Below, piece after piece: positions 10,822-63,086 of a stretch of DNA of 63,429 nt (position 1 is its first letter; the number at the start of each line of letters is the position of its first letter). The stretch lies in contig MU271416.1 of assembly GCA_021432655.1 (NCBI GenBank), positions 1 to 63,429 of the forward strand. Reading direction: 5' to 3'. The translations under genes and the position numbers were made by a program. The DNA comes from Atractiella rhizophila. Its lineage: Eukaryota. The notes under the pieces are model-generated. The model did no database searches. It saw only the letters and a list, made by a program, of their open reading frames with translations, and was not told the origin of the DNA.

Positions 10822-12370
10822 CCTGTATATGCCACCTTATCACGAACGGAGAACCTGTGTCTGGTCTAGTGTAAGAGAGTCAACAGTTTCATGAACAAAG
10901 AAGTCGTCACTTCGATATCGCGGTGTAGGGTGAGTGCAATTCTGAGGGAGATTAGGATAGACCATTCGGTTTTCTCTGACCAGTCAACATTTTCCTTGAT
11001 TTTTGTGCAGGAAATGGTGCAGAGGTGGGATCAATGTATATCCCCAACTGCTGTTGAACTTTTCCATCGAATACTTGAGATGAGGAGGCCTAATTTTTCA
11101 TTCCTGAGGTTATCTTTCTTCAATTACGCTGGTGGGGTGGTTTCCCAGGCAGGCTCCATACATATTCCTAAGAGGAATATCAGTGCTACCTGTGACAGGG
11201 CCGATTTGAAGAGCTGAACTGCAAAGCAGCTTGGTTGGGGAGCGAGATCTCTACGTTGTTGATTGGTCCGCAAGGGCAACCATAGACGCTTGATCTATGA
11301 TGAATCTGCATGCGTAACTCACCGAGGGAGTCTGAGAGCCTGATGTTAGATGTTAGAACAATCTAACCTCACATCTTGCCTTCTTCAAATCCGTCACAAT
11401 AAACACTACCAACATCAATAGTGTACTTCAACGACGCGACCCAATCCATTGCTTTGCCTTCGTGTCTACCCATCATCCTAGCAAGATCTTTAAGGTCCCC
11501 GAGAACATCAAGAAAGCGGATCGCAAGGGATTGCGGATCTTTTGCATCGACAATGGAGGAATCCGTTCCTTTTCCGCTCCATACATGTTATGCTGGAACA
11601 GATCGTGCTTTCAAGCTGCACACAACTTCTCAACATGCCGGAAGGCGAGGACCTCCGTCCTTGCGATATATTTGACCTCATTTGTGGAACTTCTACTGGC
11701 GGATGGATCGCGCTCATGCTTGGAAGGCGAAATGACCTTTCGCCAATGCATTGCAGCATATGAACAGATTACACAGAAAGTCTTTGTAGAAAACGACTCC
11801 ATCTCCAGTGGCGAATACGCTTACTCGGTGGAAAAGCTTGAAGAAATTTCATTGCTATCATCCAGCGGCATACAAACTCTTCTCACGATTCTGCTAAATC
11901 ACTATCTGTGAAAGATGATTCTGTGCAAGACAGATGCAAAAATGTTGTCTTTTCTACCAACGAGGCCAATGTCGCCGTTTCCACGGAGATGCACTCCTAC
12001 GATGCAGCATCCTCGCCAGTATTCCCTGCTTCCACTCATAAGGTTTGGGAAGGTGCAAGAGCGACAGCTGCCTATCCTCCCTTCTTTCCTCCAATCAACA
12101 TGGATTCCACTGGTTACGTTAACGTAGCTCGAGACAATCCTACAGCGATACCTGTTGAAGAAGTGAAGGGAATTTGGGGATCCAATATTGAGATCGCCTG
12201 TCTTGTATCCCTCGGTTCTGGCATTATGCCGGCCATCAAGTTGGGCCACACTCGAGATGATGTTGAGCGAGCATTGGAGCGATAGTCATAGATTGCTCAA
12301 GGGTTTCGAACGAGGTGACCGTGATGATGCAAGATCGGAGGGCGGGGCATTGTCACCATCGTTTCTCGGT
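10822..12370 (+). repeat. Inverted, diverged segmental copy of about 57170-58737 (NLR promoter plus patatin-coding region)
   Basis: Colinear matches, e.g. aacaaagaagtcgtcacttcgatatcgcggtgt (about 10894) vs the reverse complement of about 58621-58653, continuing to accatcgtttctcggt at 12370. Confidence 0.9.
11462..12370 (+). pseudogene. Patatin-like phospholipase pseudogene (5' fragment of the NLR gene)
   Basis: Same peptides as 53639-58081 (IDNGGIRSFSAPYML, DIFDLICGTSTGGWIALMLGR, ACLVSLGSG) but ATG changed to GTG, several frameshifts and a stop at 12283; no NTPase or TPR part. Confidence 0.9.
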
Positions 12371-26000: not shown

Positions 26001-26434
26001 GATATTTGAATGACCTCCAGGTCTCTCATGAAGCTTTAGAGGTTATCAAGCAGACAACAGCGGCGGCACCATTCAACCTTCATACAAAATTGACCGGCGC
26101 CGGAGGGGGTGGCTGTGCAGTGACAATAATCCCTGATGGTGAGCTTCTTCATCAGGAGCGTCTTTAACGGACTAATCTCGCTCCTTTAGATTTCTCGGAC
26201 GCTCTTCTGGGACGTCTGACCACCCAACTTGCGGATAAAGGCTTTGCTCCCTATCTCACGTCTGTGGGAGGTTCGGGTTATGGGATTCAGCTGCCTAATG
26301 GCAAAAGAGATGCCGTCCGGTCTGAAGGAGGAAACGAAGCATTCACGCTGCCTGGCTTGGAACGGTTCAAGCTTGCGCGTCCTGAACAACTATCCGATTG
26401 GGCGGAAAGCAATGGGAAATGGATATATGTGTAG
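23092..26434 (+). CDS. STR3-ERG12: Cystathionine beta-lyase fused to mevalonate kinase
   Basis: PIYQSATFK, YDYTRSGNPTR, YDSGTKYLSGHHD (PLP Lys), LIRLCVGIED then, within the same exon, [48 protein letters not shown]. Start uncertain (in-frame ATGs from 22975). Confidence 0.9.
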
Positions 26435-28090: not shown

Positions 28091-28115
28091 NNNNNNNNNN
28101 NNNNNNNNNNNNNNN
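28091..28115. other. Assembly gap (25 N)
   Basis: Run of n exactly at the junction of the two duplicate copies. Confidence 1.
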
Positions 28116-30338: not shown

Positions 30339-30487
30339 AGATATCTAAATTGCTCTGCTATCAATTGTATGAAGTCCAATTTCTCCCATCGGCTGAGCTA
30401 CTCCAAGTGAGGTATCATACATACACAGAACCCATAACATACATCAAGTAAAAACAGGCAAACGTAAGGGGCATTAAGAACTGATAA

Positions 30488-31616
30488 CTATAAAGTCAGG
30501 CTCTCTTGAGGGGTATTGTTCTCCGCCTGGGTTTGGTTATGCGAGCTTTCGGAGAGAGGGGTTATTGCTTCTTTGGTGGTGGTCTTTCCCTCTTGGTCGA
30601 ATTTGATCTTGCGCTCTGAGGTTGACGGAACGGACTGGTCGTTGGACGAGTCCTTTGGATTTCTGGGTGTGGGATGTGATTGGGGTCGTAACGGTCTCGT
30701 TGCCTTTCGAAGGGCACGGTCGACAGGCCTCCAACACCAAGTCCACAACGTTTTCAAAGATTTGGAGCCTTCACCCTTCAGGACTGCTACTGAATGCCCA
30801 AATTCTTGCAGCTGTGCCAACATGAGCGCGGAGCTCCAGAAGACGGCAATCCCTCGACCAATTCTGGACGTCATGGAGAAGGACTTGTCGATTTCCTTCT
30901 GAACCGTGCTCGGTGATGTCTTGATTTTTTTCCGTTCTCGCAGTCCACACAACTCGCGGATATAGATGACGCAAGATACAACGCTGACGGTGAGGAGGAT
31001 GACTATGAAGATTAGGAACTGAAGAGCGATCATGATTGGGGAGAAGCAGGCTTGGATGATTCCCTTTGTTATTCGGTGAACTGTTCCGACGCGAAGATAC
31101 AAAATCAGGAAGAGAAGGAGAAGATGTTCTCCCTGTTGACAGAATTTACCCTATGCGCCAGAGATGAACGAATGATACGTACGAAAAACATGATTAGTGG
31201 TACCCAGAAAGGCTGCAGTGGGCGAATGGGTTGCCATAGCCCAGTCGGTCGATCGATAGCAGCAATCATTGAAAGCACGAGAACAAGGAAGGACCATAAC
31301 GAATGCCAGTCTAGCAGCGTCAAATACGAGGCTCGAGGTAACAGGGAGTACATGGAGATAGAGTACGCCGCTGTTGATATCGACGATCAGGGTCTCCTTA
31401 GGCAAAAGCGGGAGAGCACACGAACCTAGGGCAAGGACAACAGTGATAGAAAAAGTAAGGCGAGCAAGTTGCTCATTGGTATCATCGGTTCGGGCTATCA
31501 GGAAAACAGCGAGTGAAGAAATCGTGATCAGGTCTATCGAATCTGTTAGGTGACAACGCAGCTTCTTATGAAAGCAGTTTACCGATTGGGAACACTACTT
31601 TGACTATCCATGGCAT
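30488..31616 (-). CDS. Hypothetical multi-pass membrane protein (copy 2)
   Basis: Same exon structure as 26584-27712 with mostly silent or conservative differences. Confidence 0.55.
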
Positions 31617-46780: not shown

Positions 46781-47622
46781 AGCTATGCACCGTGATAAGA
46801 TAAATCTGACTATTACTAACTATTACTGGTGCAGGAACGACGGCAAAGGACGCGTGAGTTGGTAGAAAGTGGGAGAAATTTTTGCGAATGCGATGTGTTC
46901 GGCGTTCGCCTTTGGTTCGTCGTGTACGCTGGACGAGTGTGGGATTGATGCAACATTGCATATTGATGGATGGTTGACGGTGTTTACAACGCAGAGTATC
47001 TTAATAGATGAAGGGGCTGTTACATTTGGCATTGACGCTGTGAGCACTCTAGTACCAAATCAGTAAAGAGGATAGTAGAAGTGATGAATCTCTTGCATGC
47101 TAAACAAAATGTTTGAGTGGCATCAAATCAGTCCTTGCGTATAGGGAACACTGTTGCTCAAGAGCTGCAGACTGCTCTTATCATCTACTTTTGATGTTTG
47201 TGCTGACCTCTTTGACCGGCTTGCTGCTGCCTGCGTCATGCCGAAGCTCCTTGTATTGTGCTGATTTACTCTTCGCCCCCTGTCAAGTTCAGTTTGGGGA
47301 CTTGGTACAGTTTGGGACGGTTTAGGGAACCGTCCCAAATCGTCCCATCATGTAGGCTTTTTGAAGCTGTCCTGGAGGTTTGGGATTTCTGGTGTGGGGT
47401 AGACTGTTGAGATTACTCTTGACCTTCAAGGAAGCTGGTTGTTGATGGGCCTGTTTGTTCCAGCCCTAAAGGTAGCTCAAACATCACAATGGGTTCTAGA
47501 AGAGTATAAAGGCATACATTTTCCTCCTTTGGACTGAGCTGTTTATACTAAGCTTTGAACATCGCAGGGAGAGGGAGCTGTTAGGGCTGACACTATGTGC
47601 GGTCGCCGATGGACGATGCGTC

Positions 47623-47882
47623 TGTAGTGGAGGTAAACCTAAGAGAATACTCTGAGGTCACCTCCACTACTCTCAGATCTATATATACAAGCGGAATAAC
47701 ACTGCCACAGAGCGTAGATGAGAGCAGATGAAACATGTAAGAGAATTAAAAAGGGGAATTGACAGTGGGATTACGCGGAGTTAATAAGAAGAAGATAGGC
47801 ACAATTAGGCTAAGTGGTGATGTAGGTGCAAATGGGCGAACGGGTGACCGGGCGCCGAATTGCGTAAGACGCAAAGCTGACA
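47623..47882 (-). repeat. 3' LTR (260 bp, TG..CA)
   Basis: tgtagtggaggtaaacc...gcaaagctgaca, abutting the PPT (acacccccc on +). Confidence 0.75.
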
Positions 47883-50800
47883 ACACCCCCCAGTTTCCGT
47901 GGTGCTTGCTGCAGGCGGAAACTTCTGCTTCGTGAGGTTTGCCTATTTGCCAAAAATGCCAAAAGTGCAAGGCACCGCTTGAAAGGAGATGAAATCGTTG
48001 GAGTAAAGAGACATTATGTACTTTGTAATTTGAGGAATTTGTTCGAAGTTGACCAGGTGTTGTTTTGGTATAATAAGTGTCCATCCTGTGAAAACGGACT
48101 GGACAACTCACCAACAAACCGGTCGCCTAGACCTACGTTCAACAATGTGACTAGGGATTCACCCAGCGAGGCGTGCAGAGGAGTAGGACCTCTTAATGTG
48201 AGGGGGAGGGGACCTCGCAATTGAGGGCAATTTTCGTAAATGTGACATTGGTGATGGTGCGAGAACGCAATGAGCATTTGTCTTTGACGGGCGACGAATG
48301 GACTCACCAACGACCATGTCGCCGACTTGCCCGTTGAGGAGCAAGTCGGCACCTTGCCTTGACCTAAGTATCAAAGACTAGGATTTCACCAGGCAAGGCA
48401 TATGGGGTGTTGGACCCCTTAAGGTGAGGAAGCTGCTTCAGCACGTTTTCGTCAAAGGTTACGAAAATGCGCATTTGAGTGATTTTTGGCGGAGTTTGGG
48501 ATGGAATCGGGACGAACTGCAAGAGGGTGTGCAGTGTAATAGTCTTTTATAGCATCTTGTGAATTTTCTAGCCCTGCGATGTTGATCCACTCGTCCTCAG
48601 ATGGTGAATACCCTTTGTATCGAACGCGATATTTGAAAACTCTATTTCGGGTACCAAATCATTTTCTATCAACAATTTTTTCCACTTCCCATTCTTCAAT
48701 TCCATTCACCAAATCCGGAGGTGGTTTGGGCAACTGGACTCTGCCCGGGATGTCGTCTTCGTCGACTTTTCGTATTAGGCCCACATGGAACACTGGATGT
48801 ATCTTCCATGAGGATGGTAACTCGAGTTTAAGGTGGAGGGGACCCAAACTTGCAAAACGCGAAAGGGCCATGCCATTTGTCGTCCAACTTTTTGACAGGT
48901 CTCGTCGATTTGATGTTTTTCGCGCACAACCAGACGAAATCGCCGACATGATATTCGGGCGCCGGTGCGCGTTTTCTGTCATAATGTTTTGCCATGAGAT
49001 CTGCTGCTTGCTCGAGTGCCGCTTGTGCTTCCCGGTCAGCGATTTGTATCTTTTCTACGAATTGCGCCGCCGCGGGAACGTCCTCGTCGGAGATGGGTTC
49101 AAAGGCCATGTGTGGATGTTGACCGCAATCGAGAGAAAATGGAGTTACGCCCGTCGCCGAACTGATACGATTGTTGAGCGCAAATTTTGCGTTGGGAAGT
49201 CCTTCCACCCAATTATCTTGGAGGTGATTGCAGAAAATGCACAAATATTGTTCAACTTCTTGGTTCATACGATCAGTCTGATCATCACTTTATGGGTGGT
49301 AGGCTGTCGATGGTGAACCCTTGATACCTAATAGGCGAAAAAGTGCGGATGTGAATTTGGACACAAACTCTTTGCCTCAATCGAAAATTGCGACATCAAA
49401 AGTCCATGTAACTTCCATATGTGATCGCGAAAAAGTCTTGCAAGGCCTTCTGCATCCATCGTCGAATGGGTGGGGATGAGATGGGTGCGTTTTGAGAGTC
49501 TGTCTACTATGACGAAAATCATGTTGAATCCCCCAGATTCTAGGAGTGGTCCAACCAAGTCCATGCTGACAATTTGCCATCGACGCGTGGGAATGTCATT
49601 TGGTTGCAAAAACCCGACAGGTGGGGAAGGAAAGTTTTTTGTTCTATGGCAAGTGTGACAGGCGCCGACATAGCGGCGAACATAATGCGCCAAACCTGGC
49701 CACCAGTAGTACCTTCTTACGAGAGCCGTCGTCGATTTTACGCCTGGATGACCGGCGATTTGCAAATCGTGCAGGTCTTGCAAAATCGAGCGGTGAATTT
49801 CGTCATTGCGGGGAATGTAGAGTTTTCCGTGAAAATAGACAGCGCCATCGACTTCTTGCCACTCCTGTCGGCGAATCGGGTCGACTGGTTCGTCTAGGAT
49901 CTCTCTCTCAAGGCCTTGACTACTTGTTCTTCTCGTTCGGGTACCTTTTTCACACGTTCGAGTATACTCAACTCCGACATTGTGTTGTGAGCGCAACTGC
50001 GCTCCCAGTTGCGTTGATCGTGATACGATCTGTGTTGAAAAAACGTTCTGGGAGTAATACTACGTCAAAGTTGTCGCAAGTCGCCGGTTTGTGATCCGGT
50101 CGCCGACTGAGCGCATCTGGTTTTGCGGAGTTCCGCCCAGGACGGTGTAAAAGAGTGAAGTTGAAGGATGCAAGTTCAGTGATCCAACGTGCCTGTCGGC
50201 GATTCAACTTCTGCGGCATTCTGAAATACTCAAGATTTTTGTAATCGGTTAAGATCAGAAGTGGCTCATCAGTACCTTGAAGAAGGTGTCTCCATTCTTG
50301 CAGTCCCCGCATAATCGCGAGCATTTCTTTGTCGTAGGTGTCATAGTTCCTCTGGGCAGAGTCGAGCGATTTTGACATGAAACCGAGAGGATGAAACTTC
50401 CCATCAGGCTTCATTTGCGACAAAACGGCGCCTGTCGCGAAATTTGATGCGTCGACTTCGAGCAAAAACCGTCCTACTTGTTCGGGATGCGCCAAGATGG
50501 GCGCCGAAGTCATGAGCTGTTTCAAAGCGGCGAACGAACGTTGTTCGTCTATCCCCCAGACCCAGGAAACCTCCTTTTTGGTTAGTTCATATAAAGGTCT
50601 TGCGATGTGACTAAATCTGTCGCAAAAGCGGCGATAGAAATTAGCGAAACCAAGGAACATTTGGACTTCCTTCATGTTTTTTTGGTTCCGGCCAATCCAT
50701 CACTCCTGCAAATTTCACTGGATCCGGTTCGATCCCTCTGCTGGAAATGATCAAGCCTAGATACTCCACCTCCTCTTGACACCAAATGCATTTCTGCAAA

Positions 50801-52866
50801 TTTACGTAAAGTCCATTTTCGCGCAAAATTTGACAAACTTGTCGAACACGTTCCCAATGTTCTTCTTCAGTCTCTGTCGCAATGAGGATGTCGTCGATGT
50901 ATATGAAGATGAACACAGCGGCGATCATCGCGCGAAAAATAGAGTTCAGGAAAGCCTGAAAAGTCGCCGGTGAGTTGCAGAGACCAAAATACATCACCAA
51001 TGGTTCGAAAAGTCCGCAATTTGTGCGAAACGCCGCTTTGTGCTCGTCTCCTTCTTTGATGCGAACGTTGTTGAAACCTTTTCTCAGGTCAATCTTGCCA
51101 AAAAATTTCTTACCAGAGACCATGGAGAAGAGGTCAGCTTGGATAGGGAGTGGATTTTTGTCCTTGATTGTGGCTGCATTCAACTTACGATAGTCGAAAA
51201 GGGGACGAAGTTCGGGTGAGTCTTTTTTGTGTGTAAAAAAGACGGAAGCGCCATGTTCACCTGTGCTAGGACGTATACGAACGGCGCTCAGTTCAGCGTC
51301 AATGAATTGGTCGAGCGCCGCTTGTTCGTCTCTTTTCAAGGGGTAGACGGGACCAGCATATGGTTGAGCTTCCGGTTTGAGGTTGATGGCATGGTCCCAA
51401 GGTTGTCGAGGAGGAAGCGAGGTTTTGAATTTTTCGTGGTCGAAAATGTGTGCAAAATCGGCGATTTGCGTCGGTATTTCGACAACGCTTTTTGGTCTCA
51501 TCGCCGCTGCGTCTTTCGCCAGTTTCTGCGATTTTGTCATGGCGGCACGTATTGAGGCAGAGACGATGGAAGTTGGTCATGTGTGGTAGACACATCAACC
51601 GCGTTGCAACTGGTGGGGCAACGAGAGAACTCAACTTTCCCTGACGCCCAGTTAATCTCTGGGTTGTGGTGCCTCGGCCAGTCATGACCCGGAATCATGT
51701 CAACTGTCCCCAACTCCGCCACAGCGAATTGCCAAACTTTGTGATGGGCGGCGATCGAAATGGGTAAATAAGCGACTGAATGGATGGAACCCCCCTGATT
51801 GAGGGATCCGTCGATATTGTAAACGGGCGCCGGAGAAGGGAGTTGAATGACAGGTAGGTTGTATTCGGAAACAAGTTTTGGGGAAATAAAAGAAGTGGTG
51901 GCCCCACTGTCAACGAGCGCCGACGTGGCGTGTCGGCAGTGGGAATGTGGATGATGGAATGCAATTCTGAGCTTCGTCTTCGAACTGACAAGGGATGTTG
52001 TTGTCGAGTGTAAATGGACTTTGTCATACATTTTTGCGACTTCTGCGCATCTTTGTTTCCAGGAGGGAAAACATAATTTTGGGAATAGGGAGTCTCCCTC
52101 AGACGAGGGGAATACTGTGCCGGGCGGCGTTTTGTTGGAAGTGATTTTAGATGACGTAAATGAATTGCAAGTTGGCGATGGGGACACTTCTTTCACCCAC
52201 CGCTGTCCTAAAAAGCCTCTTCTAGATCTTTTGATTGGGTAACACTCGTTTTCGGCGACTGGTTGGCGTTTTACGCAAATTGTCGCTCTTGGTCCATCAT
52301 CTTTGAATCAAAATATTCTCCTTGAGCTCGGAGATATTGTTCTTTGCTCATAGTCGTTCTACACACTCTTTCCCAGTGCCCTATCTTCTGACATCGTCTG
52401 CAACGGTGAGGCCTAGATTTTGTCGCATCGACTTCCATGTCATCACGGTCTTTGGCTCTGTGAGCGTGTGTAGCGGCGTTTGGTGACAGATCGGCGACCG
52501 TTGGCAAAGTGGCACTCGGTGGATACAATACGGGTGTTCTGCTTTCTCTGTGTTTTGTTGATTTTGAACTGTCTCTCCTTGCAGAAAACATATTCTGGGG
52601 TCCGTCTTTCGCTGATGGGATGTTTCGAAAGAAGGTTGAATGTGCAGATTCTTCTGCATCAATTCGTCGAGATTTTTCTTTCCAGTCTTATAGTGATTTT
52701 AGGAACTCTCCTTGGGTTACTTTGAGATGTAGGGCAGGATTGAGTCCTCGTTTGAAGAAGAAAATAAGAGCTTCATCAGGCCAAACACTATGTGCGGTCA
52801 CCGATGGGCGATGCGTCTGTAGTGGAGGTAAACCTAAGAGGATAGTATGGCATGAGAAGACTAACC

Positions 52867-53388
52867 TGTAGTGGAGGTAAACCTAAGAGAATACTCTGAG
52901 GTCACCACCACTACATCTTAATGTATATATACATATGTAAAGGCACTGCCATAAACTGTAACATACGTTTCTTGAAACATGTAAGATAGCTAGATCAGGA
53001 AAGCAATAAAGGGAATACTCGGAAATAAGACATACTGAGCAGTACAAGTGAGAAAGGATAATAAGGCAATAATGGCGACGGTGCAGACCGGCGAAATGTA
53101 TAAGGTTTGCTGAGCGGCGATTCGTGTGAGATGGGGCAAGGCGGCGGTCAGCGCGAACGTGAGCAAAGCGGCGACAGGTAGGCACATGATCCTACGACGT
53201 ACTAAAGTAGGTCACGTGACATCAAATGGTGCATTTCGGTAATGCGTAGGAGCAAGCCTGACATTCATGTAGAACACAAACGGGCAAACAGGCACCGATT
53301 TGCGGGGAATTTGCAGGGAACGCAAATGCGCGATGGGAGACGCAATCCGGCGAACGGGTACCAATTTGTGTAAGATGCAAACCTGACA
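52867..53388 (-). repeat. 5' LTR (about 520 bp, TG..CA)
   Basis: Same termini as the 3' LTR (tgtagtggaggtaaacc...gcaaacctgaca); interior diverged and longer. Confidence 0.7.
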
Positions 53389-53638: not shown

Positions 53639-56600
53639 TCAATTTATATGGGGACTGTGAGATAAAACGTACCGAAACAATCCAATAATTCCTTGCCATC
53701 GTAAAGCCTTTTTCATAGCAGTTTCTTTTGTCACACCCATTGCTTTTTCTGCCTGTCCAATTCTGTCAAGCAAATTATCACAGTATTCGATGTCTGAAGC
53801 TGTGCAGCATTCCATGTAAAGCGAACGAGCCTTCACGATTTCCTCCCTTGCTTCAGCATATCTGGACAGTTCGAAGAGTTGTTGTGCCATTGTCTCTCTA
53901 CTGATGGCCTCAAGATAGCCACCCACTGTCTGACTCAAAATGATCGCTTCCTTGTATAACTCAATCGCCTTTGTAAACTGAGAATCCTGAGTCAAAATGG
54001 AAGCATTACTGTAGAGACAATTAAGTTGACCTCCCACATCTTCGAGGCCTAAATAGAGCTGCTTTGCCTCCTCGAACTGTTTTAGTGCTTCCTCATTGTT
54101 CCCGCGACGCTGCTTGATCTCCCCAATGCTGTGAATGCAGTGGGCCAGGCCTTGCTGATCTTCCACCACCAGGTACAGCTGCTTTGCCTCCTCAAACTTT
54201 TTCAGTGCTTCCACATTCTTCCCACGATGCTGCTCGATCTCCCCAATGCTGTGAACGCAGTGGGCCACGCCTTGCCAATCTTCCACCACCAGATACAGCT
54301 GCTTTGCCTCCTCAAATTTTTTCAGTGCTTCCACATTCTTCCCACGATGCTGCTTGATCTCCCCAATGCTGTGAATGCAGTGGGCCAGGCCTTGCTGATC
54401 TTCCACCACCAAATACAGCTGCTTTGCCTCCTCAAATTGTTTCAGTGCTTCCTCACTCCTCCCAAGATGCTGCTCCATCTTCCCCTTGCTGTAAGTGCAG
54501 TGGGCTAGGCCTTGCTGATCTTCCACCACCAGGTACAGCTGCTTCGCCTCCTCAAACTGTTTCAGTGCCTCCTTATTGTTCCCACGATGCTGCTTGATCT
54601 CCCCAATGTTGTGAATGCAGTGGGCCAGGCCTTGCCGATCTTCCACCACCAGATACAGCTGCTTTGCCTCCTCAAACTGTTTCAGTGCTTCCTCATTCTT
54701 CCCAAGATGCTGCTCCATCTTCCCCTTGCTGCGAATGCAGTGGGCCAGGCCTTGCCGATCTTCCACCACCAGATACAGCTGCTTTGCCTCCTCAAACTGT
54801 TTCAGTGCTTCCTCATTCTTCCCACGATGCTGCTCGATCTCCCCCATGCTGTAAATGCAGTGGGCCAGGCCTTGCCGATCTTCCACCACCACATACAGCT
54901 GCTTTGCCTCCTCAAACTGTTTCAGTGCTTCCTCATTGTTCCCGCGATGCTGCTCGATCTCCCCAATGCTGCAAATGCAGTGGGCCAGGCCTTGCCGATC
55001 TTCCACCACCAGATACAGCTGCTTTGCCTCCTTAAACTGTTTCAGTGCCTCCTCATTGTTCCCGCGACGCTGCTCGATCTTCCCCTCGCTGTGAATACAG
55101 TGGGCCAGGCCTTGCCGATCTTCCACCACCAGGTACAGCTGCTTTGCCTCCTCAAACTGTTTCAGTGCTTCCACATTGTTCCCACGACCCTGCTCGATCT
55201 CCCCAATGCTGCGAATGCAGTGGGCCAGGCCTCGCTGATCTTCCATCACCAGATACAGCTGCTTTGCCTCCTCAAACTTTTTCAGTGCTTCCACATTGTT
55301 CCCATGACGCTGCTCGATCTCTCCCATGCTGTGAATGCAGTGGGCCAGGCCTTGACAATCTTCCACCACCAGATACAGCTGCTTTGCCTCCTCGAACTGT
55401 TTTAGTGCTTCCTCATTGTTCCCGCGACGCTGCTTGATCTCCCCCATGCTGCGAATGCAGTGGGCCAGGCCATGCCGATCTTCCACCACTAGATACAGCT
55501 GCTTTGCCTCCACAAACTGTTCCAGTGCCTGTTGTGGATTCCCCTTCTGTTGAAAGGCTAACCCTAGAACCATGTTTAATTCCGCTGTGATTGCTGGAGT
55601 TGATGTAAGCTTCTTGCAGGACAAAGCACACTGGATCAATGGTACTGAGGGGAGGCTTTGAAGATACAGAAAGTTCCCAATGCCTACAATGAAATTGAAT
55701 CCCTTTGTCGGATCTTTGAGATGTTTGAAAGCAGCTAATAGTACGTGTTGAAGGTTTGGAAAATCGTTGCGAAAAGCCAACAGTCCGATCCGTTCAGCGT
55801 CATCTTTGAAACATCGATAATTTTTACAAGCCTTCTCCATCAGACCTTCAGTTAAGGGCTCGAGTGATAAAGTGGTGACTTTGAAAGGAGGAAGAGGACC
55901 CAAGACCAAACGGTTGATATATTCCCGAATTGGAGCCAGCATGCGCAATCGTGAGGTGTGTGTAAGAATGTCATCAACATTTTCAGCAAGTCCAACCTTC
56001 AAGATTGAGGTGACGAGCACAGCAGAATCCTCTGAATGGGGAAGGCTGGAGTTATTGCCAAAGGCGATAATGTCGTCAGCCAGAAGACCATCAGGGGTCC
56101 AAGATAGAAGGGCAAGGATAAAAGCACTGAGGTCCTCATTCTTCTTGAGCAGAGGTGAATCGAGTGAAAAGGATATCGAAGTGGCAAGATTGCGTGTCTC
56201 CTTGCTGTCTTCATTCCAGAGTACACTGGTTTTCTTTTCCTCCCATTCATCCACCAAAACCCTTAGCTCCTTCGTCGATTCTTCATTTGCACGAAGAATG
56301 AAGAGCTTGATGGACAGGGCATGGCGATCCAGTTTGGTAGCAATGGTCTTGACTAGTTGTTCATCATCCGGGCAACCTTCCCGAGCAATGTACATGTATT
56401 TGAACATATCCTGTACGCCATTATTGCTCAAGCCTCCAATCGCTAGCTTTTGCAATCTTATGCCTGGCGAGTTCACACGTTCAACCTGATGGCCTCGATG
56501 TACTACGACAAGAATGGAACCAGAAGGACATTTGGTGGAAAAAAGAGTCTGGAAGAATGACTGTAGGTTATCATTGTCAGACTGTGCCGGAGTTTCAAAA

Positions 56601-58081
56601 TTATCGAGGATAAGGAGACACTTGTGAGCGTTGAAATATTGTTCGACAGCAGTAAGTTCATCTTGGCCAGGCGGAGGAGCTAATCCAAAAACTTCTTTGC
56701 AAAGGTTGGTCGAGAGAGAGGAGAAGTCGGAGAAAGCGTCGCAGCGGGCCCAAAAGCGAAAGTCTGCTTCCTTACCATCCGTGGCGGTCCTGAATGCGTT
56801 TTTGATTTTGTCTGTATGTAGGACTTCCAGTGCAACAGTAGATTTGCCGTTCCCAGCACCACCGATGATAGCGAGGTGCTTCTTGTCGGTAAGGATGAAT
56901 TCTATCGCTTTCTCGATTTCCTCTTTTCTTCCGTAGCAAGCCGCTCGAGGAGGTAAAGGGATCTTCCTGTGCACTGTGACACGATCTTTATGGTCTACAT
57001 AGCAGAATGTTAGCATACAATTACCAATGACGAAGAGTATACCTTTCGCCAGCGATTGAGCAACGCTCAACACTTCATGCTTCATCGCTTCCATGTAAGC
57101 CATCGTACCTCCTACGGCATCATTCTTTCGCCCCCACTCCTGCCACTTGAAATCTCCAAATGTATCGACCGAGAAACGATGGTAACAATGTCCCGTCCTC
57201 TGCTCTTGCATCATCACCTTCACCTCGTTCGAAACCTTTGAGCAATCCATAACTATCGTCTCCAATGCTCGGTCGACATCGTCTCGAGTGTGACCCAATT
57301 TGATGGCAGGCAAAATGCCAGAACCGAGGGACACAAGACAGGCGATCTCAATATTGGGTCCCCAAATTCGCTTCGCTTCTTCAACAGCTATCGCTGTAGG
57401 ATTGTCGCGACCTACGTTAACGTAACCAGTGGAATCCATGTTGATGGGAGGAAAGAAGGGAGGACGGGCAGCGGTCGCTCTTGCAGCTTCCCAGACCTTG
57501 TACGTGGGAGCAGGGAAAAACGGAGATGATGAAGCACCAGGAATATCGTAGGTGCGCATCTCCGTGGAAACGGTGACGTTGGCCTCGTAGGTAGAAACAA
57601 CAAAAGTTTTGCACCTGTCATGCCAGGAGGCATCTTTCATAGAAAGCGATTTCGCAGAAGCGTGAGAAGAGTTCATATGCCGCTGGATGATAGCAATGAA
57701 AGTTTCTTCAAGCTTTTCCGCCGAGTAAGCGTACTGGCCATTGGAGATCGAGTTATTTTCTAGAAAAACTTTCTGTGTGATCTCTTCATATGCCGAAATG
57801 CATTGGCGAACGGTCATTCCCAGCCTCCCAAGCATAAGTGCAATCCATCCGCCAGTGGAAGTTCCACAAATGAGGTCAAATATATCGCAAGGACGGAGGT
57901 CCTCGCCCTCCGGCACATCGAGAAGTTGTGCAGCTTGAAGCATGATCTGTTCCAGCATGTATGGAGCGGAAAAGGAACGGATGCCTCCATTATCGATGCA
58001 AAGGATCCGCAATCCCTTGGGATTCACTTTCTTGATGTTCTCGGAGACCTTAAAGATCTTGCTAGGATGATCAGTAGACAT
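53639..58081 (-). CDS. Fungal NLR-like receptor: patatin-like phospholipase - STAND NTPase (NB-ARC/NACHT-like) - TPR repeats
   Basis: DNGGIR, GTSTG; P-loop GGAGNGKST, Walker B LLILDNFE, RMLAPIREY; 12 conserved 40-aa TPR-like units. Probable 48-nt in-frame intron at 56995-57042 (GTATAC..CTAAC..TAG). Confidence 0.92.
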   Translation of the reverse strand: MSTDHPSKIFKVSENIKKVNPKGLRILCIDNGGIRSFSAPYMLEQIMLQAAQLLDVPEGEDLRPCDIFDLICGTSTGGWIALMLGRLGMTVRQCISAYEEITQKVFLENNSISNGQYAYSAEKLEETFIAIIQRHMNSSHASAKSLSMKDASWHDRCKTFVVSTYEANVTVSTEMRTYDIPGASSSPFFPAPTYKVWEAARATAARPPFFPPINMDSTGYVNVGRDNPTAIAVEEAKRIWGPNIEIACLVSLGSGILPAIKLGHTRDDVDRALETIVMDCSKVSNEVKVMMQEQRTGHCYHRFSVDTFGDFKWQEWGRKNDAVGGTMAYMEAMKHEVLSVAQSLAKGILFVIGNCMLTFCYVDHKDRVTVHRKIPLPPRAACYGRKEEIEKAIEFILTDKKHLAIIGGAGNGKSTVALEVLHTDKIKNAFRTATDGKEADFRFWARCDAFSDFSSLSTNLCKEVFGLAPPPGQDELTAVEQYFNAHKCLLILDNFETPAQSDNDNLQSFFQTLFSTKCPSGSILVVVHRGHQVERVNSPGIRLQKLAIGGLSNNGVQDMFKYMYIAREGCPDDEQLVKTIATKLDRHALSIKLFILRANEESTKELRVLVDEWEEKKTSVLWNEDSKETRNLATSISFSLDSPLLKKNEDLSAFILALLSWTPDGLLADDIIAFGNNSSLPHSEDSAVLVTSILKVGLAENVDDILTHTSRLRMLAPIREYINRLVLGPLPPFKVTTLSLEPLTEGLMEKACKNYRCFKDDAERIGLLAFRNDFPNLQHVLLAAFKHLKDPTKGFNFIVGIGNFLYLQSLPSVPLIQCALSCKKLTSTPAITAELNMVLGLAFQQKGNPQQALEQFVEAKQLYLVVEDRHGLAHCIRSMGEIKQRRGNNEEALKQFEEAKQLYLVVEDCQGLAHCIHSMGEIEQRHGNNVEALKKFEEAKQLYLVMEDQRGLAHCIRSIGEIEQGRGNNVEALKQFEEAKQLYLVVEDRQGLAHCIHSEGKIEQRRGNNEEALKQFKEAKQLYLVVEDRQGLAHCICSIGEIEQHRGNNEEALKQFEEAKQLYVVVEDRQGLAHCIYSMGEIEQHRGKNEEALKQFEEAKQLYLVVEDRQGLAHCIRSKGKMEQHLGKNEEALKQFEEAKQLYLVVEDRQGLAHCIHNIGEIKQHRGNNKEALKQFEEAKQLYLVVEDQQGLAHCTYSKGKMEQHLGRSEEALKQFEEAKQLYLVVEDQQGLAHCIHSIGEIKQHRGKNVEALKKFEEAKQLYLVVEDWQGVAHCVHSIGEIEQHRGKNVEALKKFEEAKQLYLVVEDQQGLAHCIHSIGEIKQRRGNNEEALKQFEEAKQLYLGLEDVGGQLNCLYSNASILTQDSQFTKAIELYKEAIILSQTVGGYLEAISRETMAQQLFELSRYAEAREEIVKARSLYMECCTASDIEYCDNLLDRIGQAEKAMGVTKETAMKKALRWQGIIGLFRYVLSHSPHIN
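54056..55530 (-). repeat. Coding tandem array, 120-bp unit, 12 full units plus a partial unit (high-internal-conservation TPR)
   Basis: Every second 60-nt line repeats; unit consensus GLAHCIxSxGEIEQxRGNNEEALKQFEEAKQLYLVVEDxQ. Confidence 0.98.
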
Positions 58082-60556: not shown

Positions 60557-63086
60557 TCAACGCTGTACGCTACTCGCCTTCGCCAACTCCACTCCCCACC
60601 TTCCCACCTCCTCCATCGCCTTCTCATCTCCGCTTCTAACTCTCTCCGCCTCCTCTCCCGGTCCAAGCGCATCAGCGACCAACTTCCACGGATCCCTTGC
60701 GCTCCCCCACCTGAGGAGTTTCTCTTTGAACCACTCCCCACTCTCTCGGTCCAACGGACTGTTATCGAAGATTTTATGAAAAAGTCTCGAAGCGATGGCG
60801 CGGTCAAAGATGTACGAATAATAGGTAGCGCCGTATCCGACAAGATGGGAGAACTGGGTTTGGTGGTGAGTGCCCGCGGCGTGCGGGATGGGATATCGAG
60901 AGTTTTGGACGCGGGAGAATGTAGAGGTTGAGTCGAAGGATGGGGAGAGGGGGAGGGACGAGTGGTATTCTAGGTCGAGGTCGGCGAGCGTGATTTGCCA
61001 AGTGTCCTCCAGGGCTGGGAATGTGCGATGCTGCTTTTTATAGGTTTGGAGTTTGGGGAGGGGAAGGGGTGATTGGTTGGAGAAGTGTGTGAAGAGGGAG
61101 AGGATGGGGGGAGAGGATAGAAAGTGCTCCATTAGGATTGAAGGGAGTTCGACAAAGTCTGTTGCGACCCGGGTGCCGGATGAGTTGTGGTATGGGGTTT
61201 GACCAATCATCGCTGTCGAGAATGTGCACATCAGCGTCCAGCTCAGGAATGGAGAAAGTGAGGGTACAAACAATGAATAGCATGTCCCATCTCGTGGAAC
61301 AATGTCTCTACCTCTCCCCACTTGAGCAGAACTACATTCTTTCCCTCCCTCTTAGACCTTCCGAATCCACAAACAAGCACCACAACCGGTAGCTGGTAGG
61401 TTCCCTCCTCCCCCTTCTTCTTTACGTGTTCAGCATTCAATCCTCCTTCGTCTTCTGCTTCTGCAGCAGATCCAGAAGAGAGATCCAGGTCCGTCCTCCT
61501 TGAACATGTCACTGTGTAGTGAGCCGGCGCAGAATTCTTCCCCTCCCTCCAAAACAGATCCAGATAGACCGTCCCAACCTTCTCATCTTTGTCATCCAAC
61601 ATCGAAAGCTTGAGGACAGAGGGATCCCACGTCTCCCCTAACAGAGGAGACTGGAGTTCGAAGCGCAGTCCATAAATGGATTGGAAGAGGTGAGAAAGAG
61701 CGCGGAAGACAGTACCGAGTGAAAAGTAGGCGCTGAGCTCTTCTTCGATATTTGCGTCTTTTGGTGAGGTGGTTGCGGCGAGGAATAAATTGGTCAGATA
61801 GTCGCGATCCCATGGGTATACCGGTGGAGGGGAAGAGAGGTGTTGTGTTGATTGTTTTAGTCGCTGGAGGATGGACAGCTCTGATGTCGCTTGAGGGAGG
61901 ATGGACGTGGAGATGGCATTCAGGAAGGAGGTGACATTCTCTGGTACCCCCAATGGTCGTGTTAACAGATCAAAGGAGCGGTGAAACTGGAGACGAACCT
62001 GGGGTCTTCGCCATTTTATCATGCAGAGTCAACTCTGCCCAATTCTCATATCCCACCAATCTTGCAACCTCGCATCTCTTTCTTAACATCTCCTCTAAAG
62101 TCTCTAAATCTTCTGGTTCTGCTTTATGGACAGCGAGGTATGCTGCCTTCCTCACTCTCTCATCATCACCATAGCGCAGCCCGTGGATTTGGCTCCCGTC
62201 CCTTCGTAGCCGCATTTTCTTCCCACCATTCCCAAGGTCCAGCTCAACTTGCGCAGATCGACGTCTGTACGGAATCTCCATGATATCTTGTCCTAAGAAA
62301 GAAATCGTGTCGGATTCTTGCACAAAGAGCTCACGCTGATGTGGGGGAAGGTGAATGCCAGACTTCTCGAAGTCTCTCAGGAATTGGAGAGCGATGGTGT
62401 AGGTGTTGAAGAGCTCCGGGTCTGCGGTGTCGGAAGAAGGGAACGGAATAGAACTGATTATCCGTTTGAGCGCCTGGCTTTCTCTCCATCAACATTTGTC
62501 TGAGGTTAAAGGAAGAGGAGAAGCAGAAGACGAACTCGATGGAGCCCAACATGGGTATTCAAAACATTCATATAGTTATGCAACTCAGCATGCGCTACTT
62601 CGCTCGCTTCCACCCATTCCTGAGAAGGATGCACGTTCTTCACGAGCTCTGCAAGGTCGATAACGCCACACAGCAGGTCTGAGACCTTATCCAGCCTCGC
62701 CACGATGGTGAAAAGCTGTTGCCTTATATCCAGAGAAGCGAGCAATGGATCTCTGGTCTGCTCCTGGAACCGTGGTGCTTGGTTGGCAGTTGAAGGGGTG
62801 TAAAGCGTGTCAAAGTCCCGACAGATGCCTTCGACGATTCCAGCCACACGTTGCCCCGTCCATCGTGCTACAGCTGGGAAATCGGCTGGCGTGCGTAAGC
62901 GTGAGTGTCCGAAAAGACCAGTCGTGCGTGTGGGATCGATGGAAGACTTGGGAGCTGGTGATGAGCGGCTGTCGAGGATTGCAAGTAGTTCTGTGTCGGC
63001 AGCGGAGAATCTGGGAGCGGAAGGACGAAGCCGCCGACGTCAAGTACGTCGCCTTTTCAATGCAGAAGAGGTAGGCGTAACCTCAT
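60557..63086 (-). CDS. OCT1: Mitochondrial intermediate peptidase (M3 family); 5' end uncertain
   Basis: TGLFGH, RLDKVSDLLCGVIDLAELV, MNVLNTH, PWDRDY, TLFHEMGHAIH (HExxH), GTRVATDFVELPSILME, HLVGYGATYYSYIFDRAIA. Confidence 0.92.

What the first reader, a model, noticed from the sequence alone, without database searches (positions are those of the whole stretch)
53639..58081. Intact patatin-STAND-TPR NLR, a candidate allorecognition or immune receptor in a basidiomycete
Seen: an uninterrupted tripartite ORF of about 1460-1480 aa, nearly intron-free in an intron-dense region, between a retrotransposon and a housekeeping gene. Known: the architecture matches PLP-1-type cell-death NLRs of Neurospora and Podospora that respond to SEC-9 variants. 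Inference: an accessory non-self recognition gene with unknown ligand; basidiomycete incompatibility genes are poorly characterised.
Basis: partly seen in the sequence, partly recalled or inferred. Interest (0 to 1): 0.7.

Follow-up and report, generated by a model that had tools for sequence, protein, structure and literature searches.

The report
Patatin-STAND-TPR receptor gene in Atractiella
This is an intact gene for a fungal NOD-like receptor (lipase-like head, ATP-driven switch, repeat sensor) from a root-associated basidiomycete, one of a family that multiplied in that lineage and whose lipase head has lost a key catalytic residue.

Summary
Window 53639-58081 (minus strand) is an open 1480-codon frame with three parts: patatin-like domain, STAND NTPase, and 13 TPR units of 40 residues. 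It contains one 48-nt in-frame GT..AG intron (56995-57042), so the mature protein is about 1464 aa.

The neighbouring peptidase gene is 99% identical to Atractiella rhizophila (Pucciniomycotina). All 27 close relatives found are A. rhizophila gene models at 81% identity or less. Their patatin domains form one clade.

Three points change the PLP-1 reading:
- Pfam calls the NOD "NACHT", but profile and fold comparisons place it with NB-ARC/MalT-type STANDs, which is the PLP-1 type.
- The patatin domain keeps the G-x-S-x-G serine but has lost the D-G-G aspartate, in 11 of 11 clade members, and has an altered glycine loop.
- The TPRs are 40-residue units of LGN/Pins type. No SNARE gene was found in the window.

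Allorecognition versus immune function remains untested. I rate it a new variant of a known kind, of moderate interest.

The parts
53639..58081 (-). Whole coding region of the NLR gene, stop codon included. Exon 1 is 57043-58081 and exon 2 is 53639-56994.
   Evidence: ORF list and translation; Pfam architecture.
56995..57042 (-). 48-nt in-frame intron: GTATAC at the 5' end, a TGCTAAC branch-point-like motif, TAG at the 3' end. It encodes 16 residues that the paralogues lack.
   Evidence: Sequence. Gap in the A. rhizophila paralogues P0002, P0014 and P0018. A joint 56994|57043 skipping 48 nt is seen in 2 contigs of run X3 and 1 contig of run X4 (table 5). A 92%-identical contig of DNA run X1 runs through it unspliced (record 8).
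57419..58003 (-). Patatin-like domain (Pfam span res 27-221; homology continues to about res 345).
   Evidence: PF01734, 57.8 bits, E 2e-15. PDB sequence hits to patatin Pat17, CBASS CapV-type patatins and iPLA2beta.
57974..57994 (-). Altered glycine-rich loop D-N-G-G-I-R-S (res 30-36), in place of the D-G-G-G-x-R-G seen in most relatives.
   Evidence: Alignments.
57851..57865 (-). G-T-S-T-G nucleophile elbow (Ser75), retained.
57410..57418 (-). N-V-G (res 222-224) at the place of the catalytic D-G-G motif. The Asp is replaced by Asn.
   Evidence: HMMER alignment to solved patatin 9wn0 puts N-V-G under D-G-G. 11 of 11 clade members lack Asp here.
55592..56971 (-). NOD module (res 371-830): P-loop NBD, helical domain, winged helix and further helices.
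   Evidence: AlphaFold model pLDDT 79.5, pTM 0.80. Foldseek and VIA-align matches to Apaf-1, NRC2, NRC1 NB-ARC, MalT and PH0952. hhalign to patatin-NB-ARC NLRs 99.8%.
56837..56863 (-). Walker A G-G-A-G-N-G-K-S-T (res 407-415).
   Evidence: Nearly invariant G40, G42 and K43 of alignment A1; coordinates.
56591..56617 (-). Walker B region L-L-I-L-D-N-F-E-T (res 489-497).
   Evidence: Nearly invariant L119 to T127 of alignment A1; coordinates.
53972..55531 (-). TPR sensor: 13 units of exactly 40 residues (res 851-1370). The first 12 are close copies of one another; unit 13 is 50% identical to their consensus.
   Evidence: Register. TRF period 120, 12.3 copies. Mean pairwise identity 0.90 nt and 0.80 aa. 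Model of res 831-1130 pLDDT 95.4, best match LGN/Pins TPR at TMq 0.89-0.91.
53642..53971 (-). C-terminal tail (res 1371-1480), apparently degenerate capping helices.
   Evidence: Translation. Not modelled.
10822..12370 (+). Inverted, pseudogenised partial duplicate of the gene's 656-bp upstream region plus its first 914 coding bases (patatin domain only).
   Evidence: blastn 84.6% over 1588 columns. Pieces lie in three frames. 7 indels, 6 of them not multiples of 3; dN/dS 0.34.

Best explanation
The locus encodes a functional NOD-like (STAND) receptor. It belongs to a patatin-NLR family that expanded within the Atractiella lineage (Pucciniomycotina).

Inferred mechanism, by analogy with characterised STAND/NLR proteins:
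1. The C-terminal superhelix of 40-residue LGN-type TPRs holds the protein closed and binds a still unknown ligand, probably an extended protein segment.
2. Binding releases the NB-ARC-like NOD, which has intact Walker A and B motifs, for nucleotide exchange and oligomerisation.
3. Oligomerisation brings the N-terminal patatin-like domains together as the output, most likely acting on membranes or lipids and leading to cell death or another defence response.

The output domain is not a canonical Ser-Asp phospholipase. Ser75 is kept, the Asp is replaced and the glycine loop is altered. It may therefore act with an alternative base, or without catalysis.

Shown here: the gene structure, the three domains, the motif states, the family expansion and the repeat organisation. 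Inferred: ligand binding, oligomerisation and a death or defence output.
For: Intact gene:
- A 4.4-kb frame is open, while a partial duplicate 42 kb away has decayed. That relic has 7 indels, 6 of them frame-breaking. dN/dS between gene and relic is 0.34 over 297 codons.
- The single intron has canonical splice signals. An intron-less joined form is present in runs X3 and X4.

Architecture:
- Pfam finds Patatin, a STAND NTPase and TPR_12.

NOD:
- Walker A and B columns are nearly invariant across 17 aligned sequences.
- The model has pLDDT 79.5.
- VIA-align gives NRC2 resting state Z 20.7, PH0952 STAND-TPR 20.2, MalT 19.4 and Apaf-1-ADP 18.6. NLRP9, NLRP3, NLRP1 and NOD2 score 10.5, 9.8, 9.2 and 9.1.
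- hhalign against 9 patatin-NB-ARC-TPR proteins gives 99.8%, E 1.8e-28, over 777 columns.

Sensor:
- There are 13 units of 40 residues. The 12 conserved units average 0.90 nt but only 0.80 aa identity.
- Against the column consensus there are 35 nonsynonymous and 12 synonymous variant codons. The nonsynonymous ones concentrate in unit positions 19-40: 27 of 35, against 4 of 12 synonymous (Fisher P 0.012; the split was chosen post hoc).
- The model best matches peptide-binding LGN/Pins TPR domains (TMq 0.89-0.91, rmsd 2.3-2.7 A).

Family:
- 27 A. rhizophila gene models are related at 81% identity or less.
- All 13 A. rhizophila patatin domains in the tree form one clade with support 0.995.

Literature read as passages:
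- Patatin-NLRs control cell death in ascomycetes (PMC12881547).
- Internally conserved, positively selected TPRs are typical of fungal NLR sensors (PMC4986451).
Against: - No run on record as RNA holds the gene. X3 is of unknown kind and X4 is only guessed to be RNA, so expression and splicing are likely but not shown.
- The canonical catalytic Asp is absent and the glycine loop is altered. PLP-1 death is reported to need patatin activity. The output domain could be inactive.
- No allele at 90% identity or more exists among the annotated A. rhizophila proteins, and the exact ORF product is not in the 15-billion-protein collection. Population data are nil.
- A simple test for clumping of variable positions across the 40 columns was not significant (P 0.31). 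Pooled dN/dS among units is 0.79, not above 1.
- Only 1 of the 5 TPR models was confident (95.4 against 28-38).
- Pfam labels the NOD NACHT, in conflict with the fold result.
Confidence: 0.72

Rival explanations
1. It is specifically a somatic (vegetative) incompatibility determinant. Polymorphic alleles of this NLR, or of its target, trigger death when unlike Atractiella mycelia fuse, as plp-1/sec-9, het-z and vic2 do in ascomycetes.
For: The domain architecture matches the PLP-1/HET-Z class. The repeats are near-identical at DNA level, which favours unequal recombination. X1 holds contigs whose net difference from the window is exactly 5 and 2 repeat units (636-36 and 256-16 nt, tables 5 and 5c). 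No allele at 90% or more is annotated in the reference, although the neighbouring peptidase has three copies at about 98-99%.
Against: No isolate comparison was possible. The repeat-skipping contigs may be short-read assembly artefacts or paralogues. No SNARE partner gene is nearby. Most fungal NLRs are not het genes (abstract of PMC13449251). A family of some 27 gene models argues for a wider recognition repertoire rather than one het locus.
Confidence: 0.15
2. It is a PLP-1-like guard of the SNARE machinery, with a SEC-9/SNAP-25-type target encoded elsewhere in the genome.
For: The NOD is homologous to those of patatin-NB-ARC-TPR proteins. The TPR part scores 84.9 bits on Pfam SNAP (PF14938), as does paralogue P0002 at 69.5 bits. 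That hit was absent at E 0.001 or less from all 13 non-Atractiella NLRs and NLR-related proteins of that scan.
Against: No SNARE domain was found in 98 scanned ORFs of the window. PDB sequence and fold searches with the TPR part return LGN, consensus TPR/PPR and OGT, and no alpha-SNAP in the rows shown. The SNAP hit therefore looks like generic helical-hairpin periodicity. The patatin active site differs from what PLP-1 function is reported to need.
Confidence: 0.07
3. It is an evolutionary left-over. The gene is still open but functionally decaying: a pseudo-lipase NLR drifting after a burst of duplication, with no present role.
For: The catalytic Asp is lost and the glycine loop degenerate. 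A decayed partial copy lies in the same window. A retroelement relic sits next door. Many family members are annotated only as fragments.
Against: 4443 nt are open without a stop or frameshift, while the relic at 15% divergence has 6 frame-breaking indels in 914 nt. Walker A and B, GTSTG and the TPR scaffold positions are conserved; the 26 least variable repeat codons have dN/dS 0.15, though they were chosen post hoc. The Asp-less state is shared by 11 of 11 clade members that otherwise keep the domain conserved. That suggests a maintained, altered function.
Confidence: 0.1

Closest known systems
PLP-1 (Neurospora crassa), HET-Z (Podospora anserina) and VIC2 (Cryphonectria parasitica): patatin/NB-ARC/TPR NLRs
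   Same: Same order of domains. The patatin and NOD regions align with patatin-NB-ARC-TPR proteins of other fungi from the N-terminus into the NOD: phmmer stretches reach query residues about 500-520 and hhalign gives 99.8% over the NOD. A P-loop is present. The sensor is a TPR.
   Different: The Asp of the Ser-Asp dyad is replaced (N222) and the glycine loop is D-N-G-G. The NOD is so divergent that Pfam NB-ARC scores 15.7 bits, below threshold. TPR units are 40 rather than 42 residues. No sec-9-like neighbour was found. The family is expanded, whereas patatin NLRs were reported at 1.7 per species (PMC4986451 passage). PLP-1 itself was not fetched; ascomycete and agaricomycete patatin-NB-ARC-TPR proteins from my searches stood in for it.
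nSTAND1/NB-ARC-TPR NLRs of Agaricomycetes (Mycena and Lyophyllum proteins with an MLKL_N head)
   Same: The NOD and the following helical region align at 21-25% identity, with shared G-x-G-G-x-G-K-[TS], L-L-I-L-D-N-x-E-T and P-I-R-E-Y motifs.
   Different: They carry a different N-terminal effector (MLKL_N, not patatin) and different, non-40-residue repeat regions.
LGN/GPSM2/Pins TPR domain
   Same: Best structural match of the sensor model: TMq 0.89-0.91, rmsd 2.3-2.7 A over about 310 columns, 18% identity. Helices are 17 residues with 3-residue turns, giving a 40-residue period.
   Different: LGN is an animal polarity scaffold with no NOD or effector domain. The resemblance concerns repeat geometry only. 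That LGN units are 40 residues long is my recollection, not a call result.
Internally conserved repeats of fungal NLRs (HNWD WD40 repeats; TPR/ANK of Podospora NLRs)
   Same: Tandem units of high DNA identity (0.90), with differences mostly nonsynonymous and concentrated in part of the unit. This is as described in PMC4986451 (passages).
   Different: Amino-acid identity averages 0.80. Only 20 of 66 unit pairs reach the 85% used in that paper. Positive selection and repeat-number polymorphism are not shown here.

Membership tests
Fungal NLR (STAND receptor with effector, NOD and repeats) | N-terminal domain of a class known as a fungal NLR effector | tested here: met
   Patatin PF01734, 57.8 bits. 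Patatin is one of the 12 N-terminal classes in PMC4986451.
Fungal NLR (STAND receptor with effector, NOD and repeats) | Central P-loop STAND NTPase with Walker A and B followed by a winged-helix module | tested here: met
   Motifs in alignment A1. Model and fold matches to Apaf-1, NRC2, MalT and PH0952.
Fungal NLR (STAND receptor with effector, NOD and repeats) | C-terminal superstructure-forming repeats (TPR, ANK or WD) | tested here: met
   TPR_12 230 bits. 13 units of 40 aa. TPR superhelix model.
Fungal NLR (STAND receptor with effector, NOD and repeats) | Ligand-triggered oligomerisation and downstream output | not testable with these tools
   Needs biochemistry or genetics.
PLP-1/HET-Z-type patatin-NB-ARC-TPR NLR | NOD of the NB-ARC type | tested here: met
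   hhalign 99.8%, E 1.8e-28, to NODs of 9 patatin-NB-ARC-TPR proteins. Fold Z 18.6-20.7 to Apaf-1 and NRC2, against 9.1-10.5 for NACHT proteins. Caveat: the Pfam NB-ARC HMM itself scores 15.7 bits, below its 23.5 cut-off.
PLP-1/HET-Z-type patatin-NB-ARC-TPR NLR | Catalytically competent patatin domain (Ser-Asp dyad), reported as required for death | tested here: not met
   Ser75 is present. Asp is replaced by N222. 11 of 11 clade members lack it. The requirement is taken from review and preprint passages.
PLP-1/HET-Z-type patatin-NB-ARC-TPR NLR | Genetic partnership with a linked polymorphic SNARE gene (sec-9) | tested here: inconclusive
   No SNARE domain in the 98 ORFs of 102 aa or more scanned outside the gene. 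Short exons would be missed, and an unlinked partner is not excluded. [quoted passage not shown]
PLP-1/HET-Z-type patatin-NB-ARC-TPR NLR | Allelic polymorphism that determines compatibility | not testable with these tools
   No isolate genomes are held. Contig-level hints only.
NACHT-clade STAND (Pfam PF05729) | NOD closer to NACHT than to the NB-ARC/AP-ATPase clade | tested here: inconclusive
   The sequence HMM says NACHT (36.1 bits against cut-off 26.7; NB-ARC 15.7). Fold and profile comparisons say NB-ARC/MalT-like. Atlas neighbours are NB-ARC/nSTAND1 clusters, a lead only.
Active patatin-like phospholipase | Glycine-rich oxyanion loop G-G-G-x-[RK]-G | tested here: not met
   The loop is D-N-G-G-I-R-S. 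Paralogues have D-N-G-G-I-C/A-T.
Active patatin-like phospholipase | G-x-S-x-G nucleophile | tested here: met
   G-T-S-T-G with Ser75, aligned to G-T-S-V-G of solved patatin 9wn0.
Active patatin-like phospholipase | D-G-[GA] catalytic aspartate | tested here: not met
   N-V-G is aligned under D-G-G. The count by my regular expression was 108 of 140 aligned relatives with the Asp motif, and at least 3 more have Asp on inspection.
NLR repeats of high internal conservation (Dyrka et al. 2014 criterion) | Units over 85% identical across at least 100 aa | tested here: inconclusive
   Nucleotide identity averages 0.90. Amino-acid identity averages 0.80, and 20 of 66 pairs reach 0.85.
NLR repeats of high internal conservation (Dyrka et al. 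2014 criterion) | Diversifying selection at defined positions of the unit | tested here: inconclusive
   Pooled dN/dS 0.79. For 7 positions picked post hoc it is 2.84. The clumping test gives P 0.31. Unit halves differ, Fisher P 0.012, split chosen post hoc.

The most novel reading that the evidence does not exclude
Atractiella carries a lineage-specific, expanded family of patatin-NLRs whose effector domain has given up the canonical Ser-Asp lipase chemistry. The Asp is lost in all 11 clade members examined while the serine elbow is strictly kept. The family would signal by a different mechanism: a serine-only or alternative-base hydrolase, or a non-catalytic membrane or protein-binding head activated by proximity. 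About 18 further fungal patatin-NLR relatives from other taxa also lack the Asp, and many of those lack the Ser too. 'Pseudo-patatin' NLR effectors may therefore be a widespread, undescribed class. I found no paper combining 'patatin', 'catalytic dyad', 'NLR' and 'heterokaryon incompatibility'.
Probability: 0.3. Interest if true: 0.6.

Novelty: new variant of a known kind. Interest (0 to 1): 0.4.

Why it matters
NLRs of basidiomycetes are poorly annotated (23% N-terminal Pfam coverage against 72% in ascomycetes; PMC9815663 passage). The 2014 survey found no NLR at all in Pucciniomycotina (PMC4986451 passage). 'Atractiella' does not occur in 11 of the 13 supplementary files of the 2022 survey.

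This locus shows three things. A Pucciniomycotina fungus has patatin-NLRs. They multiplied there, although patatin NLRs are usually one or two per species. Their effector domain departs from the enzyme chemistry that the only characterised member (PLP-1) is reported to need.

That gives a concrete test of whether patatin heads of NLRs kill by lipid hydrolysis or by something else. It also gives a tractable candidate set for non-self recognition in a plant-root-associated fungus. The root association is my recollection of the species description plus the title listing.

Tried and rejected
- Whole genome: none is held for this window. Paralogue counts therefore rest on protein databases and run contigs.
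- Expression: no RNA holder is listed. Parts of the gene without cover in X3-X5 are not interpreted.
- Copy number and repeat-number variants: X1 depth (601 contigs laid, 177/181/243 at 99+/95-99/90-95% identity) and the repeat-skipping joints could be paralogues, haplotypes or assembly artefacts. I use them only as hints.
- PDB sequence search with the NOD: nothing significant (best E 0.03, ubiquitin-activating enzyme).
- SNAP/SNARE reading of the TPR part (Pfam SNAP 84.9 bits): set aside, because PDB sequence and fold searches show no alpha-SNAP in their rows.
- Taking Pfam's 'NACHT' label at face value: rejected.
- Clumping of variable repeat positions: not significant (P 0.31). The helical-moment analysis did not place the variation on one helix face (variability moment 0.19). 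I therefore do not claim a concave-face location. Coordinates of the model were not available to me.
- TPR structure: the first job (650 aa) was interrupted. The re-run on 300 aa gave one confident model of five.
- Earlier findings of this scan: three look-ups returned nothing.
- A bacterial-type promoter/terminator scan of the 3' flank is irrelevant to a fungal gene.
- Exact look-up of the unspliced ORF product: not in the collection. The spliced product was not looked up, because that would have needed a joined sequence.

Full report
OBSERVATION. The ORF at 53639..58081 on the minus strand is real: 1480 codons from ATG to stop. The next longest stop-to-stop frame in the window is 780 aa. Pfam finds three modules: Patatin (res 27-221, 57.8 bits), a STAND P-loop NTPase (NACHT 36.1 bits, above its 26.7 cut-off; NB-ARC 15.7 bits, below its own) and TPR_12 (230 bits, 12 stretches). 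Tandem Repeats Finder reports 12.3 copies of a 120-bp unit at 54053-55528, with 90% matches and no indels.

GENE STRUCTURE. Compared with its closest relatives, the ORF carries 16 extra residues between the patatin domain and the NOD. The DNA there reads AAAG|GTATAC...TGCTAAC...TATGTAG|AC. This is a 48-nt in-frame segment (56995-57042) with canonical GT..AG ends and a branch-point-like motif.

Public run contigs were laid on the locus. A joint that skips exactly these 48 nt appears in two contigs of run X3 (kind unknown; about 9% diverged, so a paralogue or another strain). It also appears in one contig of run X4 (guessed RNA; 2 differences in 155 nt). A 92%-identical contig of the DNA run X1 runs through the segment. 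I read this as a spliced intron and a mature protein of about 1464 aa. Because no run is on record as RNA, splicing and expression are likely but not proven. No other GT..AG-type joint was reported within the coding region.

ORGANISM AND CONTEXT. An exon of the neighbouring Peptidase_M3 gene is 99% identical to 'zincin' KAH8920962 of Atractiella rhizophila. That species belongs to Basidiomycota, Pucciniomycotina, Atractiellomycetes. The reference has three copies of this protein, 98.5-99.5% identical to each other, on three contigs. The window matches none of them exactly, at 92-99.5% per exon. The window is therefore A. rhizophila or a very close strain or haplotype, and the reference assembly appears to hold several haplotypes.

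The 3' neighbour is a degenerate gypsy-type retroelement, with PR, RT, RNase H and integrase in four frames at 49331-52307. The 5' neighbours are a GATA zinc-finger ORF and then the peptidase. The rest of the window is housekeeping: AAA ATPases, Erv26, Nop14, Ku, cystathionine-type enzymes, PP1, DAHP synthase and a mitochondrial carrier. No SNARE domain appears in the 98 ORFs of 102 aa or more scanned outside the gene.

FAMILY. An exhaustive phmmer search with residues 1-830 against 1.84 billion cluster representatives gave 5458 hits at E 1e-3 or less, and 55 at 1e-30 or less. Of the 20 top-ranking hits I looked up, 17 are A. rhizophila gene models (10 of 10; 7 of 10). The other three are from Rhizoctonia, Penicillium and Mycena. 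A search among shorter proteins gave 19 hits at E 1e-20 or less, 17 of them A. rhizophila, with at most 81% identity.

In all I saw 27 A. rhizophila models of the family. Given the multi-haplotype reference, the number of loci is smaller. The exact ORF product is not in the 15-billion-protein collection.

In a FastTree of 140 patatin domains (326 columns), all 13 A. rhizophila sequences form one clade with support 0.995. The 11 without the catalytic Asp form an inner clade (0.81). A D-G-G-bearing member (P0023) branches first. This is a lineage-specific expansion, and the Asp was lost inside it. For comparison, patatin was reported as one of the least expanded NLR effector classes, at 1.7 per species (PMC4986451 passage).

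A further trace of turnover lies in the window itself. 10822-12370 (+) is an inverted copy (84.6% identity) of the gene's 656-bp upstream region and its first 914 coding bases. It is broken by 7 indels, 6 of them frame-shifting, and no NOD or TPR follows it. dN/dS between gene and relic is 0.34 with dS 0.25.

PATATIN DOMAIN. The G-x-S-x-G elbow is intact (G-T-S-T-G, Ser75). The glycine loop reads D-N-G-G-I-R-S instead of D-G-G-G-x-R-G. At the D-G-G motif that supplies the catalytic Asp, the protein has N-V-G. HMMER's alignment to a solved CBASS patatin (9wn0) puts N222-V-G under D-G-G. Multiple alignments agree.

All 11 members of the inner clade lack Asp there; most have Ala. Among the 140 aligned relatives, my regular expression counted 108 with the Asp motif, and at least three more have Asp on inspection. 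About 18 non-Atractiella sequences lack it, and many of these also have G-T-G-T-G, meaning the Ser is lost too.

Reviews state that PLP-1-driven death depends on patatin activity (passages of PMC12881547, and of preprint 10.1101/2022.04.03.486892). This family therefore cannot simply be assumed to work as PLP-1 does. I could not inspect model coordinates, so an alternative base near Ser75 is not excluded.

NOD. Pfam's label is NACHT, but three lines of evidence point the other way:
- Nine of nine non-Atractiella patatin NLR relatives examined carry NB-ARC. Phmmer alignments with several of them run from the patatin domain into the NOD, to query residues about 500-520.
- hhalign of the clade's NOD alignment (A1, 17 sequences) against nine patatin-NB-ARC-TPR proteins (A2) gives 99.8%, E 1.8e-28, over 777 columns spanning the whole NOD.
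- The AlphaFold model (pLDDT 79.5, pTM 0.80) matches Apaf-1, NRC2, ZAR1, NRC1 NB-ARC and CED-4 by Foldseek, with no NACHT protein in the rows shown, which run to rank 50. By VIA-align it matches NRC2 resting state at Z 20.7, the archaeal STAND-TPR protein PH0952 at 20.2, MalT at 19.4 and Apaf-1-ADP at 18.6. NLRP9, NLRP3, NLRP1 and NOD2 score 10.5, 9.8, 9.2 and 9.1.

ESM-Atlas neighbours are basidiomycete NB-ARC/nSTAND1 clusters, which is a lead only. Walker A (G-G-A-G-N-G-K-S-T), the Walker B region (L-L-I-L-D-N-F-E-T) and an invariant Arg in P-I-R-E-Y of the winged helix are conserved across the alignment. That this Arg sits where NB-ARC proteins have the MHD histidine is my inference from the secondary-structure order, and is untested.

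The nearest non-Atractiella NODs belong to Mycena and Lyophyllum NLRs with MLKL_N heads, scoring nSTAND1 at 33-40 bits. The NOD is thus a divergent NB-ARC/nSTAND1-type module. The architecture is that of PLP-1, not an unusual patatin-NACHT-TPR combination.

TPR SENSOR. There are thirteen units of exactly 40 residues (res 851-1370). The first twelve are close copies. Mean pairwise identity is 0.90 for DNA but 0.80 for protein, and 20 of 66 pairs reach 0.85. This is because differences are mostly nonsynonymous: 35 nonsynonymous against 12 synonymous variant codons relative to the column consensus.

Pooled dN/dS among units is 0.79. It is 2.84 for the seven most variable positions (19, 27, 29, 35, 36, 38, 40), but those were picked post hoc. 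It is 0.15 for the 26 least variable codons, also picked post hoc. A naive clumping test is not significant (P 0.31). The two halves of the unit do differ: positions 1-18 have 8 synonymous and 8 nonsynonymous variants, and positions 19-40 have 4 and 27 (Fisher P 0.012; post hoc split).

A single-sequence model of res 831-1130 gave one confident model out of five (pLDDT 95.4; the others 28-38). It shows 17-residue helices and 3-residue turns. Helix 1 covers unit positions 39-15 and helix 2 covers 19-35. The variable half is therefore helix 2 and the turn after it.

The model's best matches are LGN/GPSM2/Pins TPR domains solved with bound peptides from NuMA, Inscuteable, Frmpd1/4, Afadin and Whirlin (TMq 0.89-0.91, rmsd 2.3-2.7 A). 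Most fungal NLR TPRs were reported to be 42 residues long (PMC4986451 passage). Paralogue P0022 also has near-identical 40-residue units, while P0002 has nine diverged ones. I could not locate the variable residues on the superhelix surface, and the helical-moment calculation was uninformative.

MECHANISM. The best-supported reading is a working STAND receptor. The TPR superhelix senses a ligand, probably an extended polypeptide. The NB-ARC-like NOD switches and oligomerises. The clustered patatin-like heads deliver the output at membranes. Only the parts list and motif states are shown here. The steps are inferred from characterised NLRs and from PLP-1 (passages).

Whether the gene serves allorecognition, defence against other organisms or management of symbionts is open. 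The size of the family argues for a repertoire rather than a single incompatibility locus.

NOVELTY. Patatin-NB-ARC-TPR NLRs and internally conserved NLR repeats are known. Four things are new here:
- The lineage: no NLR was found in Pucciniomycotina in the 2014 survey. 'Atractiella' is absent from 11 of 13 supplementary files of the 2022 survey. One paper in the library holds Atractiella, genome and NLR together, and by its listing it is an unrelated poplar review.
- The expansion of a normally low-copy class.
- The degenerate active site with a retained serine.
- The 40-residue LGN-type sensor.

I rate it a new variant of a known kind, of moderate interest.

Noticed in passing
window 10822-12370 (+): Inverted, pseudogenised partial duplicate of the NLR gene's upstream region and patatin domain. 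It is 84.6% identical, has 7 indels and its pieces lie in three frames. It keeps D-N-G-G-I, G-T-S-T-G and the Asn in place of the catalytic Asp. No NOD or TPR follows it.
   Followed up: yes
window about 24400-27700 and 28460-31600, around the N-run 28091-28115: Apparent direct duplication of about 3.9-4.0 kb. ORFs of identical length occur at 26587-27246 and 30491-31150 (220 aa each). A C-terminal Cys_Met_Meta_PP piece occurs twice (24442-25062 and 28463-28963). It could be a real segmental duplication or an assembly artefact at the gap.
   Followed up: no
window 60560-63036 (-), with proteins P0164, P0284 and P0285: The A. rhizophila reference holds three copies of the mitochondrial intermediate peptidase, 98.5-99.5% identical, on three contigs. 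The window encodes a fourth variant, 92-99.5% per exon. This suggests a multi-haplotype assembly, or another strain.
   Followed up: partly
window 49331-52307 (-), with short direct repeats 47590-47689 and 52785-52933: Degenerate Ty3/gypsy-type retroelement, with protease, RT, RNase H and integrase zinc finger in four different frames. Only 60-70-bp direct repeats (92-95% identical) flank it.
   Followed up: partly
proteins P0003, P0029, P0040, P0045, P0078, P0121, P0141, P0160 and others: About 18 patatin-NLR relatives outside Atractiella also lack the D-G-G aspartate. Many also have G-T-G-T-G, meaning the nucleophile Ser is lost. Named examples come from Ceratocystis (P0003) and Rhizoctonia (P0029). 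Degenerate patatin heads may be common in fungal NLRs.
   Followed up: partly
protein P0002 (A. rhizophila KAH8928614), res 1128-1171: This paralogue carries a BAG domain (PF02179, 37.5 bits) after its TPR array. Its annotated N-terminus starts inside the patatin domain, so the gene model looks truncated.
   Followed up: no
window 54556-55193 and 54565-54822 (run X1, tables 5 and 5c): Contigs of the DNA run skip 636 nt with 36 other letters in between, and 256 nt with 16 in between. The net differences are exactly 5 and 2 repeat units of 120 nt. These may be repeat-number variants, paralogues or short-read assembly artefacts.
   Followed up: no
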